NCBI RefSeq assembly: GCF_003790525.1
Contig: NZ_CP033635.1
From: Escherichia coli
GTDB lineage: Bacteria; Pseudomonadota; Gammaproteobacteria; Enterobacterales; Enterobacteriaceae
Length of the DNA: 64,000 nucleotides
Reading direction: 5' to 3' (one strand)
Below the pieces are notes generated by a model. The model saw nothing but the letters and a program-made list of their open reading frames with translations. It did not search any database and was not told where the DNA came from. Positions 5,806 through 10,315 of this stretch are shown here, one piece after another; the first letter of the stretch is position 1, and each line of letters starts with the position of its first letter. The position numbers were made by a program, and so were the translations under genes.

Positions 5806-7874
<2,069 letters not shown>

Positions 7875-7876
7875 AT

Positions 7877-7907
7877 AAAACGGGAGGTGAAGGTGCCTCC
7901 CGTTTTT
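7877..7907. terminator. Bidirectional intrinsic terminator (AAAA-CGGGAGG-loop-CCTCCCG-TTTTT) shared by envZ and the minus-strand antitoxin gene
   Basis: 7 bp GC-rich stem 7881..7887 / 7896..7902 with A-run before and T-run after; antitoxin stop codon (7906..7908) lies in the T-run. Confidence 0.75.
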
Positions 7908-8202
7908 AGATTGTTTTCAATTGATTGATAATGAAAGGATTCGCTTGCAAAAGCAGGAGCAATTTTCGGGGTGCTCCGGTAGGCTGACGGCGTTTGGTTT
8001 CCCAGCTTTTGACCAGGTCATAACTTACCCCTACGGCGACAGCAAAATCTTGCTGACGTAAACCCGTTGCTTCACGGATCGCTTTTACATCGATTTCGCT
8101 AAAAGTATGGACGTGCTCTGGTTCTGGCGTTTCTTCACCCTTTTCGATGCGTACCATTTCTTCTGCGCTGGCAAGAAGATCAGCAAATAATTCATCTTTC
8201 AT
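7906..8202 (-). CDS. HigA-like antitoxin, XRE-family helix-turn-helix DNA-binding protein (98 aa)
   Basis: ATG at 8200..8202 with GGAGG Shine-Dalgarno about 10 nt upstream; C-terminal half has an HTH_XRE signature (LRQQDFAVAVGVSYDLVKSWETKRRQPTGAPRKLL); 58 bp downstream of a RelE/ParE-type toxin gene. Confidence 0.75.
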   Translation of the reverse strand: MKDELFADLLASAEEMVRIEKGEETPEPEHVHTFSEIDVKAIREATGLRQQDFAVAVGVSYDLVKSWETKRRQPTGAPRKLLLLLQANPFIINQLKTI

Positions 8203-8260
8203 CTGTTTTCAATGCCTCCGTTGACATTTCGGCCATGGTGGAATTTGTGGAGCTTCAACA

Positions 8261-8578
8261 TTAAAGCAGCTTCTCGGACAATAGTTTCAATGCCTTTCTT
8301 TGTTCTTCTGTTAAATCATCCTGTTCATTTTTAGGATAAATCAACGCCAGATAAATTCGGCCATTGCGTGTTACGTTGTAATAAATTATCCGAGTGCCAC
8401 CCCGTTTCCCCATTCCAGAACGGTTCCAGCGAATTTTTCTAAAACTGCCTGTGCCTGCGATAATGTCACCGGCAGTGGGATCTTGAATGAGTAGTTCCTG
8501 AAAAGCCCGGAACTCATCATCAGGTAGCAATAACTGGCGGCGTTTGCTAAATCCTTGTAGTTCAATAAAGGTGAACAT
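8261..8578 (-). CDS. HigB-like toxin, RelE/ParE superfamily (Gp49-like), probable ribosome-dependent mRNA endonuclease (105 aa)
   Basis: ATG at 8576..8578 with AGGA SD; motif GTGSFRKIRWNRSGMGKRGGTRIIYY resembles the conserved core of HigB-2/Gp49-like toxins (recalled Vibrio HigB: GTGGLRKIRVASKGKGKRGGSRIIYY); toxin-upstream, antitoxin-downstream order typical of hig loci. Confidence 0.72.
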   Translation of the reverse strand: MFTFIELQGFSKRRQLLLPDDEFRAFQELLIQDPTAGDIIAGTGSFRKIRWNRSGMGKRGGTRIIYYNVTRNGRIYLALIYPKNEQDDLTEEQRKALKLLSEKLL

Positions 8579-8602
8579 AATGCATCCTGCGGTCTATTGA
8601 TA

Positions 8603-8608
8603 ATTATA
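8603..8608 (-). promoter_or_regulatory. Candidate -10 hexamer TATAAT for toxin-antitoxin cassette promoter
   Basis: Perfect TATAAT on minus strand about 25 nt upstream of toxin ATG; -35 region weak; flanked by GTACAC direct repeat (possible operator). Confidence 0.35.
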
Positions 8609-8642
8609 AGTGTACCGTGTACATATTGGTAGCTAATTAGAT

Positions 8643-8673
8643 AAAAAAACCCCTTATCCGTTTGGATAAGGGG
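8643..8673 (-). terminator. Intrinsic terminator of pck (stem CCCCTTATCC / GGATAAGGGG followed by T7 on minus strand)
   Basis: 10 bp stem at 8650..8673 with A7 run at 8643..8649 (T-run on minus strand), 20 nt downstream of pck stop. Confidence 0.75.
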
Positions 8674-8692
8674 TCAATGAGATATCAGCTGA

Positions 8693-10315
8693 TTACAGCT
8701 TAGGACCTGCCGCTACCAGCGCGGCACCCGCAGGGGTGTCGGTGTATTTATCAAAGTTGTCGATAAACAGTTTCGCCAGGGTTTCGGCTTTTTCCTGCCA
8801 CTGTTCCGGGGAAGCGTAGGTGTTACGCGGATCGAGGATCTTCGTGTCTACGCCCGGCAGTTCGGTTGGGATCGCCAGGTTAAACATCGGCAGAGTGAAG
8901 GTTTCTGCGTTATCCAGCGAACCGTTGAGGATGGCGTCGATAATGGCGCGGGTATCTTTAATCGAGATACGTTTGCCAGTGCCGTTCCAGCCGGTGTTAA
9001 CCAGATACGCCTGCGCGCCTGCCGCCTGCATACGTTTCACCAGCACTTCTGCGTACTGAGTTGGGTGCAGCGACAGGAATGCCGCGCCGAAGCAGGCGGA
9101 GAAGGTTGGCGTCGGTTCGGTGATGCCGCGCTCTGTACCAGCCAGTTTGGCGGTGAAGCCAGAGAGGAAGTGGTACTGGGTTTGATCGGCAGTCAGACGA
9201 GAAACCGGCGGCAGCACGCCGAAAGCATCAGCAGTCAGGAAGATAACCTTAGTTGCGTGGCCCGCTTTGGACACCGGCTTAACGATGTTTTCAATGTGAT
9301 AGATAGGATAAGAAACGCGGGTGTTCTCGGTTTTTGAACCATCATCAAAGTCGATAGAACCATCTTCACGCACGGTGACGTTTTCCAGCAGCGCATCACG
9401 ACGGATAGCGTTGTAGATTTCAGGTTCCGCTTCTTTCGACAGCTTGATAGTTTTTGCGTAGCAGCCGCCTTCAAAGTTAAACACGCCGTCATCGTCCCAG
9501 CCGTGTTCGTCATCGCCAATCAGGCGACGTTTCGGGTCGGTGGAAAGGGTGGTTTTACCGGTGCCGGAAAGGCCGAAGAACACCGCAACATCGCCTTTCT
9601 CACCAACGTTGGCGGAGCAGTGCATAGAAGCGATACCTTTCAGCGGCAGCAGGTAGTTCATCATTGAGAACATCCCTTTCTTCATTTCGCCGCCGTACCA
9701 GGTGCCGCCAATCAGCTGCATGCGCTCGGTCAGGTTAAACGCCACGAAGTTTTCGGAGTTCAGACCCTGTTCTTTCCACTGCGGGTTAGTGCACTTCGCG
9801 CCGTTCATAACGATAAAGTCTGGTTTGAAACCTGCCAGCTCTTCATCGCTCGGGCGAATAAACATGTTTTTGACAAAATGCGCCTGCCAGGCCACTTCGG
9901 TGATGAAACGGACGGAAAGACGAGTATCCGGGTTCGCACCACAGAAAGCGTCGACAACGAACAGACGTTTGCCGGAAAGCTGTTTGGTCACCAGGCCTTT
10001 AAGATGCTGCCAGGTTTCCGGAGAGAGAGGTTTGTTGTCGTTCTTACCTTTGCCTTTGTCTGCCCACCAGAAAGTATCGCGAGTGGTATCGTCACGGACG
10101 ATATACTTATCTTTTGGTGAACGACCGGTGAAGATCCCGGTATCGACGGCAACGGCACCCAGATTAGTTAACACCCCGCGCTCATAACCTGTCAGGCTCG
10201 GATCGAGCTCTTCCTGATACAGCAGGTCGTAGCTTGGGTTGTAAACGATATCATGTACGTCACTGATACCATAAGCCTCGAGTTCTTGCGGGGTCAAACC
10301 ATTGTTAACGCGCAT
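8693..10315 (-). CDS. pck: Phosphoenolpyruvate carboxykinase (ATP)
   Basis: ORF-track 563 aa begins at a TTG; internal ATG (CAT 10313..10315) gives 540 aa [20 protein letters not shown]..., matching PckA. Confidence 0.95.

What the first reader, a model, noticed from the sequence alone, without database searches (positions are those of the whole stretch)
7872..7910. Antitoxin stop codon embedded in the envZ terminator T-run (shared bidirectional terminator)
The envZ terminator hairpin (CGGGAGG / CCTCCCG) is followed by TTTTT at 7903..7907, and the antitoxin TAA (read on the minus strand) sits at 7906..7908 inside that run. The incoming cassette therefore ends exactly at the pre-existing terminator and uses it in the opposite direction, while pck keeps its own terminator at 8643..8673. 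This geometry suggests the insertion was precise, and that convergent transcription from envZ could collide with cassette transcription.
Basis: seen in the sequence. Interest (0 to 1): 0.3.

Follow-up and report, generated by a model that had tools for sequence, protein, structure and literature searches.

The report
Toxin-antitoxin cassette borrowing envZ/pck shared terminator

Summary
envZ stops at 7872-7874. A hairpin follows (core CGGGAGG/CCTCCCG 7881-7902, A4/T4 extension 7877-7906), then TTTTT at 7903-7907. The antitoxin stop (TTA on +, TAA on -) is 7906-7908.

The window is E. coli SMS-3-5. Of 5426 complete E. coli genomes, 1330 have this junction and 4075 have an empty site.

Empty sites keep the hairpin, so it belongs to the envZ flank. 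The junction lies between T7906 and T7907, so the last base of the antitoxin stop is the fourth T of the resident T-run.

Published 3'-end maps of K-12 (an empty-site strain) place both the envZ and the pck mRNA ends at this one hairpin. It is therefore a proven bidirectional terminator. The cassette now occupies the side that serves pck in K-12.

The claim that pck keeps its own terminator is wrong relative to every cassette-free allele examined. The hairpin at 8648-8675 is absent from empty alleles in E. coli, Citrobacter and Kluyvera and occurs only with the cassette.

The event is a replacement (43 nt swapped for 785 nt), with no target duplication or inverted ends. It appears to spread by homologous recombination.

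Whether the hairpin terminates cassette transcription efficiently is untested. The stop codon lies only 3 nt from the stem, and a terminating ribosome could mask it.

Low interest.

The parts
6522..7874 (+). envZ coding sequence; stop codon TAA at 7872-7874
   Evidence: ORF list; RefSeq annotation of the identical record.
7877..7906 (.). Resident envZ/pck bidirectional intrinsic terminator. The GC core is CGGGAGG (7881-7887) / CCTCCCG (7896-7902), flanked by A4 (7877-7880) and T4 (7903-7906).
   Evidence: Terminator scan; folds on both strands; unique in the window; present in empty-site alleles; 3' ends of envZ and pck both map to it in K-12.
7903..7907 (+). T-run after the hairpin. T7903-T7906 are resident flank. 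T7907 is the first base of the cassette-specific DNA and the middle base of the antitoxin stop codon.
   Evidence: Occupied versus empty alignment: CCCGTTTT|TAGATTG against CCCGTTTT|GCTTTC.
7906..8202 (-). Antitoxin, 98 aa, with an HTH_31/HTH_3 domain and a match to the NCBIfam NadS family. The stop codon TAA is the complement of 7906-7908.
8261..8578 (-). Toxin, 105 aa, RelE-like (PF06296). It is the first gene of the two-gene operon.
8585..8623 (-). Inferred cassette promoter region: ribosome-binding site, -10 TATAAT (complement of 8603-8608) and the GTGTAC-CGT-GTACA operator-like repeat (8610-8623).
   Evidence: Read from the sequence. The GTAC-N-GTAC motif is conserved upstream of the toxin in 20+ related loci. 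Function is inferred, not tested.
8641..8675 (-). Cassette-linked intrinsic terminator: a 12-bp stem (GACCCCTTATCC/GGATAAGGGGTT) followed by T7. It lies 17 nt after the pck stop and now serves pck.
   Evidence: Absent from empty alleles. Present only in the 1330 cassette-bearing genomes. A homologous hairpin sits at the same place in occupied Citrobacter and Kluyvera alleles.
7907..8691 (.). The occupied-allele-specific segment (785 nt). It replaces 43 nt (GCTTTCTATAAGATACTGGATAGATATTCTCCAGCTTCAAATC) of the empty allele.
8693..10315 (-). pckA coding sequence; stop codon is the complement of 8693-8695
   Evidence: RefSeq annotation; ORF list.

Best explanation
The hairpin at 7877-7906 is the resident bidirectional intrinsic terminator of the convergent genes envZ and pck.

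In about a quarter of E. coli, including this strain, the 43-nt spacer between the hairpin and the pck stop has been replaced by a 785-nt module. On the pck strand the module reads: a strong terminator (8675-8648 plus T7), a promoter/operator, a RelE-like toxin, and an HTH (NadS-family) antitoxin.

The module joins the flank between T7906 and T7907. The antitoxin stop codon is therefore completed by the resident T-run, and the GC stem starts 3 nt after the stop.

As a result:
- envZ still terminates at the hairpin. Its U-tract now runs into the last antitoxin codons.
- The face of the hairpin that ends pck mRNA in K-12 now lies behind the antitoxin. It most likely ends or stabilises the toxin-antitoxin mRNA near 7873, inside the envZ stop codon.
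- pck is ended by the terminator that came with the module. That terminator also shields the cassette promoter from pck read-through.

The allele spreads by homologous recombination through the flanks, not by transposition.

Shown here: the anatomy, allele structure, population distribution and inter-species transfer, plus, from published K-12 3'-end data, bidirectional termination in the empty allele. Inferred: termination of the cassette mRNA at the hairpin, the insulating role of the second terminator, and the promoter/operator.
For: - The anatomy is confirmed.
- The window is identical to E. coli SMS-3-5.
- The occupied junction is in 1330 of 5426 genomes and the empty junction in 4075 of 5426, each once per genome and chromosomal apart from one extra plasmid copy of the empty junction.
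- Empty alleles retain the envZ hairpin and lack the 8648-8675 hairpin.
- All occupied alleles sampled (Nissle 1917, A3, FCI1, B7A and E. albertii) share both junctions.
- K-12 3'-end maps (TRS paper, PMC10687069, Supplementary Data 2-4) place the envZ 3' end at 3534481 (-) and the pck 3' end at 3534516 (+), both at this hairpin, with the listed sequences ending in its two U-tracts.
- Klebsiella has envZ and pck adjacent with a single A-run/hairpin/T-run between them.
- Citrobacter and Kluyvera have both alleles. In both genera the pck-proximal hairpin occurs only with the cassette, while the envZ hairpin is resident.
- Between E. coli and E. albertii, the cassette plus the last ~200 nt of pck are about 98-99% identical, against about 93% in the flanks. 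The identity break falls at the envZ hairpin.
- The E. coli insert has no flanking direct repeats and no terminal inverted repeats.
Against: - No 3'-end data exist for the occupied allele.
- In a tR2 reporter, a stop codon 5 bp before a terminator cut termination from about 90% to under 10%, because the terminating ribosome blocks hairpin folding (PMC4824070). Here the spacing is 3 nt, so cassette-direction termination could be weak while the antitoxin is being translated.
- The direction of evolution is not fully settled. Occupied alleles exist at the same locus in three genera, and the cassette is more diverged than its flanks (76-82% against 82-86%). An old polymorphism with repeated replacement is therefore possible.
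- Related cassettes at other loci lack the 'ccccttatcc' hairpin. It may once have been a pck terminator in an unknown donor lineage.
Confidence: 0.75

Rival explanations
1. envZ and pck each had their own terminator. The cassette inserted cleanly between the two, so pck kept its terminator and only the envZ one became shared.
For: Two good terminator-like hairpins flank the cassette. Cassettes at other loci do not carry the pck-side hairpin, so it is not part of the family-wide cassette. It could therefore derive from a pck terminator in some unsampled donor.
Against: The pck-side hairpin is missing from the two aligned E. coli empty alleles (and matches no cassette-free genome), from 7 Citrobacter empty alleles and from 1 Kluyvera empty allele. 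In K-12 the pck 3' end maps to the envZ hairpin. 43 nt of the empty allele are absent from the occupied one, so this is not a clean insertion.
Confidence: 0.08
2. The occupied allele is ancestral for the Escherichia/Citrobacter/Kluyvera group. The 'empty' alleles are secondary losses, so the tight stop-codon/hairpin junction would be the result of later trimming.
For: The same pck-toxin-antitoxin-envZ order occurs in three genera. Cassette divergence exceeds flank divergence. Decay is under way in some lineages: the toxin is a pseudogene in Nissle 1917 and A3, and an orphan antitoxin remains in K. sichuanensis.
Against: Each genus's empty allele carries its own DNA that is absent from the occupied allele: 43 nt in E. 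coli and REP-like elements in Citrobacter and Kluyvera. A simple deletion cannot produce this. The Klebsiella outgroups are empty, with one shared hairpin. The E. coli/E. albertii comparison shows recent lateral spread.
Confidence: 0.12
3. The hairpin does not act as a terminator for the cassette. A ribosome stopping at the TAA, 3 nt from the stem, masks the 5' arm. Cassette transcripts then read into envZ antisense and are ended elsewhere, by Rho or by processing back to the hairpin.
For: The reporter data on stop-codon distance (PMC4824070). Related cassettes carry a hairpin without a U-tract 1-9 nt after the stop, which suggests a stabiliser role rather than a terminator role.
Against: The envZ stop codon is only 6 nt from the same stem, yet the envZ 3' end maps at the hairpin in K-12. 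Six other stop codons in this window lie 6-9 nt from terminator-like stems. The hairpin and U-tract module is the same one that ends pck in K-12.
Confidence: 0.25

Closest known systems
Bidirectional intrinsic (Rho-independent) terminators between convergent genes in E. coli. The phenomenon was described genome-wide by SEnd-seq (Ju et al. 2019, recalled from memory and listed as a reference). The pck/envZ site itself appears in K-12 3'-end maps (PMC10687069).
   Same: A GC-rich stem flanked by an A-run and a T-run, so either strand gives a hairpin plus U-tract. It lies between two convergent stop codons. 3' ends are mapped on both strands in K-12.
   Different: In this strain the partner gene on the minus strand is a horizontally spread antitoxin instead of pck. 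Its stop codon overlaps the T-run by one base. No 3'-end data exist for this allele.
Type II toxin-antitoxin modules with the toxin gene first and an HTH-Xre antitoxin (HigBA-like order; RelE/ParE superfamily)
   Same: Two small adjacent genes, a RelE-like toxin (PF06296) upstream of an HTH antitoxin (HTH_31/HTH_3; NCBIfam NadS), with palindromic operator-like repeats at the promoter.
   Different: Activity is untested and there was no NCBIfam hit for the toxin. This allele lacks the family's own 3' hairpin and uses a host hairpin in its place.
Ribosome masking of terminators placed close to stop codons (Li et al. 2016, PMC4824070)
   Same: The stop codon lies within a few nt of a terminator stem: 3 nt for the antitoxin and 6 nt for envZ.
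   Different: That work used a tR2 reporter. No measurement exists for this site, and natural 3' ends do form at the envZ side despite the 6-nt spacing.

Membership tests
Bidirectional intrinsic terminator | Stable GC-rich stem-loop | tested here: met
   7-bp GC core extended to 11-12 pairs. Free energy is -22.0 (+) and -17.8 (-) kcal/mol, z -4.5 and -5.2.
Bidirectional intrinsic terminator | U-tract directly after the stem on both strands (A-run on one side, T-run on the other) | tested here: met
   The + strand reads UUUUUAGAUUGUUUU. The - strand reads UUUUAUUUACCC.
Bidirectional intrinsic terminator | Lies between the 3' ends of convergent genes | tested here: met
   The envZ stop is at 7872-7874 (+) and the antitoxin stop at 7906-7908 (-).
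Bidirectional intrinsic terminator | Transcript 3' ends mapped at the U-tracts on both strands | tested here: inconclusive
   This is met in K-12, the empty allele, from published data: envZ at 3534481 (-) and pck at 3534516 (+). There are no data for the occupied allele.
Type II toxin-antitoxin system (RelE/ParE toxin with HTH antitoxin) | Adjacent small toxin and antitoxin genes with the family domains | tested here: met
   PF06296 scores 28.4 bits against a cutoff of 27. HTH_31 scores 28.8 against 27. NadS NF041265 scores 75.1 against 60.
Type II toxin-antitoxin system (RelE/ParE toxin with HTH antitoxin) | Toxicity, neutralisation by the antitoxin, and autoregulation | not testable with these tools
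   Only conserved GTAC-N-GTAC repeats upstream of the toxin are seen.
Transposable or site-specific mobile element insertion | Target-site duplication, terminal inverted repeats, or a recombinase gene | tested here: not met
   None of these are present in the E. coli allele, and 43 nt of the target are replaced. By contrast, an IS10-like insertion in the same hairpin in strain EC7518 shows a 9-bp duplication.
Known RNA families (Rfam) | A match at or above the gathering score | tested here: not met
   Only three sub-threshold hits, all at the 8641-8736 hairpin (E 0.12-0.47).

The most novel reading that the evidence does not exclude
The 3-nt spacing could make the hairpin a translation-gated terminator. 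While the antitoxin is being translated, the terminating ribosome masks the stem, and cassette transcripts run on as antisense RNA into envZ-ompR. When translation stalls, for example through the RelE-like toxin or under stress, the hairpin forms and transcription stops. That would couple toxin-antitoxin activity to the osmoregulatory two-component system in a quarter of E. coli strains.
Probability: 0.07. Interest if true: 0.55.

Novelty: new member of a known kind. Interest (0 to 1): 0.2.

Why it matters
This is mainly a clean worked example. It shows how a small accessory module settles between convergent core genes. The module takes over one face of a resident bidirectional terminator. It also carries a terminator of its own, which now ends the displaced core gene (pck) and shields the module's promoter.

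It also yields a simple natural pair of alleles, present in 24.5% and 75.1% of complete E. coli genomes (the remaining ~0.4% carry neither junction). That pair could be used to test how stop-codon proximity and convergent transcription affect termination.

No new mechanism or family is implied.

Tried and rejected
- Rfam scan of 7600-8900: only sub-threshold hits at the second hairpin.
- Search for flanking direct or inverted repeats in the E. coli allele: none meaningful, so transposition or site-specific insertion was rejected.
- Search for the cassette on plasmids: the only hits were chromosome-like records mislabelled as plasmids, so there is no sign of a plasmid vehicle.
- Literature searches for a described pck/envZ bidirectional terminator, or for this toxin-antitoxin pair by name, gave nothing specific. 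The Ju et al. 2019 paper could not be opened.
- The EPEC datasets in the TRS paper were not usable. No envZ or pck entry for EPEC was held in the stored, truncated tables.
- Strain BS-04 looked like a degenerate cassette but is homopolymer-ridden assembly junk.
- Similarity between the 43-nt empty-allele spacer and the pck-side end of the cassette was judged by eye. It is too weak to call.
- The + strand promoter-like match at 7905-7932 (9 of 12) is within chance expectation: 1 found against 2.5 expected.

Full report
**1. Observation**

The window is 100% identical to E. coli SMS-3-5 (NC_010498.1). Reading 6300-8900 and listing ORFs confirms every coordinate in the finding.
- envZ is 6522..7874 (+), with TAA at 7872-7874.
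- The stem arms are CGGGAGG (7881-7887) and CCTCCCG (7896-7902).
- A4 (7877-7880) and T4 (7903-7906) extend the stem.
- TTTTT is 7903-7907.
- The 98-aa ORF 7906..8202 (-) ends with TTA at 7906-7908, which is TAA on the minus strand.

RefSeq annotates the same four genes: envZ, a nadS-family protein, a RelE/ParE-family toxin and pckA. The terminator scan lists 7877-7906 (+) and 8675-8648 (-). Both strands of the first hairpin fold much better than shuffles (z -4.5 and -5.2), and the motif is unique in the window.

Pfam and NCBIfam place the two small proteins in RelE (PF06296) and HTH_31/HTH_3/NadS.

**2.

Of 5426 complete E. coli genomes, 1330 carry the occupied junction and 4075 the empty junction. 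Each occurs once per genome and on the chromosome, apart from one extra plasmid copy of the empty junction.

The empty alleles (Ecol_743, ATCC 8739) read:

...GGGTAA ATAAAACGGGAGGCGAAGGTGCCTCCCGTTTT GCTTTCTATAAGATACTGGATAGATATTCTCCAGCTTCAAATCA TTACAG....

Three conclusions follow.
- The hairpin belongs to the envZ flank.
- The left junction lies between T7906 and T7907. The final A of the antitoxin TAA is therefore the complement of the fourth resident T, and the fifth T of the run comes from the cassette.
- 43 nt of the empty allele are replaced by 7907-8691.

There is no target duplication and no terminal inverted repeat. Occupied alleles from Nissle 1917, a bat isolate (A3), FCI1, B7A and E. 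albertii have identical junctions.

**3. The second hairpin is not pck's old terminator**

- The hairpin at 8648-8675 (12-bp stem plus T7) is absent from the empty alleles.
- In E. coli it is found only in the 1330 cassette-bearing genomes.
- Published 3'-end maps of K-12 MG1655, an empty-allele strain, settle how the empty allele behaves (TRS paper, PMC10687069, Supplementary Data 2-4). They list the envZ primary 3' end at 3534481 (-), with sequence ...CGGGAGGCGAAGGUGCCUCCCGUUUUGCUUU. They list the pck primary 3' end at 3534516 (+), with sequence ...AAAACGGGAGGCACCUUCGCCUCCCGUUUAUUU.

One hairpin therefore ends both mRNAs in K-12. It is an experimentally mapped bidirectional terminator. In SMS-3-5 the antitoxin takes the position that pck holds in K-12, and pck is served by a hairpin that travels with the cassette.

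**4. Other genera**

*Klebsiella.* In K. pneumoniae and K. aerogenes, envZ and pck are adjacent with a single A-run/hairpin/T-run between them.

*Genome-wide scan.* A scan of one genome per species with the toxin found 30 loci. The cassette lies between pck and envZ in E. albertii, two Citrobacter species and two Kluyvera species. In all of these a homologous hairpin (ccccttatc...gataagggg) plus T-run sits between the pck stop and the cassette promoter.

*Empty alleles in the same species groups.* Look-ups by exact PckA sequence recovered them.
- Citrobacter empty alleles have a REP element plus the envZ hairpin.
- The Kluyvera empty allele has two REP-like elements plus the envZ hairpin.
- None has the pck-side hairpin.

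*Distance from the antitoxin stop to the envZ hairpin.*
- In Citrobacter it is about 33 nt.
- In Kluyvera a REP-like element lies between them.
- The stop-in-T-run geometry is therefore specific to Escherichia.

*Cassettes at other loci.* In Shimwellia, Edwardsiella, Budvicia, Photorhabdus, Yersinia and others, the cassette carries its own conserved hairpin (GATGCGCC-N6-GGCGCATC) 1-9 nt after the stop.
- The pairs show some compensatory changes.
- No U-tract follows the hairpin.
- A hairpin right after the stop is therefore a family habit, and in Escherichia the host hairpin fills that place.

**5. How the allele moves**

Between SMS-3-5 and E. albertii, pck and envZ are about 93% identical. 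The segment from about 8900, inside the pck 3' end, to the envZ hairpin is about 98-99% identical. This is the signature of recent homologous-recombination transfer of the allele.

Between E. coli and Citrobacter or Kluyvera, the cassette is more diverged (76-82%) than the flanks (82-86%). The polymorphism is therefore old, and the original direction of change is not fully settled. The genus-specific DNA in each empty allele argues against simple deletion.

**6. Mechanism**

*Shown.* The hairpin with its two U-tracts terminates both directions in the empty allele. The same module is intact here; the minus-strand tract is UUUUAUUU, against UUUAUUU in K-12.

*Inferred.*
- envZ mRNA ends near 7909-7911, inside the last antitoxin codon and its stop.
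- Cassette mRNA ends near 7873, inside the envZ stop.
- The two transcripts would therefore overlap by the length of the hairpin.
- The 8648-8675 terminator ends pck and insulates the cassette promoter.

*Caveat.* A stop codon 5 bp before tR2 cut termination from about 90% to under 10% through ribosome masking (PMC4824070). Here the spacing is 3 nt. Against that, the envZ stop is only 6 nt from the same stem, yet envZ ends map there. Spacings of 6-9 nt are also common in this window.

**7. Verdict**

It is wrong on pck's terminator and on 'precise insertion'.

This is a new instance of two well-known things, a bidirectional intrinsic terminator and a toxin-antitoxin presence/absence allele. 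Interest is low (0.2).

Noticed in passing
L005:2432-2475 and L005:3293-3336 (Klebsiella aerogenes NCTC10006): A 74%-identical copy of the cassette lies between yfhH (annotated murR) and yfhL. It is flanked by a perfect 44-nt direct repeat made of the yfhH 3' end, its stop codon and the first arm of the yfhH hairpin. That is far longer than a transposase footprint, so it suggests integration by a single crossover or a duplication-type event. The antitoxin stop again lies 5 nt from the neighbour's hairpin.
   Followed up: partly
L010:505-822 (Nissle 1917), L011:562-879 (strain A3), L059:3822-4118 (Kluyvera sichuanensis): The toxin gene is annotated as a pseudogene (internal stop) in Nissle 1917 and A3, while the antitoxin stays intact. 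In K. sichuanensis only about 17 toxin codons remain, next to an intact antitoxin. Nissle 1917, A3 and FCI1 also lack 7 bp of the GTGTAC operator repeat.
   Followed up: partly
L004:3290-4700 (E. coli EC7518): An IS10-like element (annotated ISVsa5) is inserted in the loop of the envZ/pck shared hairpin, with a 9-bp duplication (GGCGAAGGT). This splits the bidirectional terminator in that strain.
   Followed up: partly
L014:3205-3580 and L052:4913-6540 (Escherichia albertii NBRC 107761): Only the last 245 nt of envZ follow the cassette. Next come two short pck fragments (73 and 74 nt) and unrelated ORFs, so envZ appears disrupted or rearranged in this type strain.
   Followed up: no
L022:3187-3225, L034:3188-3225, L040:3134-3165 and seven other loci: Cassettes outside the pck locus share a conserved hairpin (GATGCGCC-N6-GGCGCATC) 1-9 nt after the antitoxin stop, with some compensatory changes and no U-tract. 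Its role is unknown; it could be an mRNA stabiliser or a recombination site.
   Followed up: partly
L058:3735-3760 (Kluyvera sp., empty allele): The envZ stop codon TAA lies inside the A-run of its own A5/T8 bidirectional terminator. This is the same geometry as the antitoxin in E. coli, so such overlaps arise naturally.
   Followed up: no
window 7906-8578 compared with L015-L030: Across genera the antitoxin is much more conserved than the toxin, roughly 83-95% against 69-83% amino-acid identity to the E. coli proteins.
   Followed up: no
window 7905-7932 (+): A weak sigma-70-like match (TTTAGA-16-GATAAT, 9 of 12) points antisense into the antitoxin. It is within chance expectation (1 found against 2.5 expected).
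   Followed up: no
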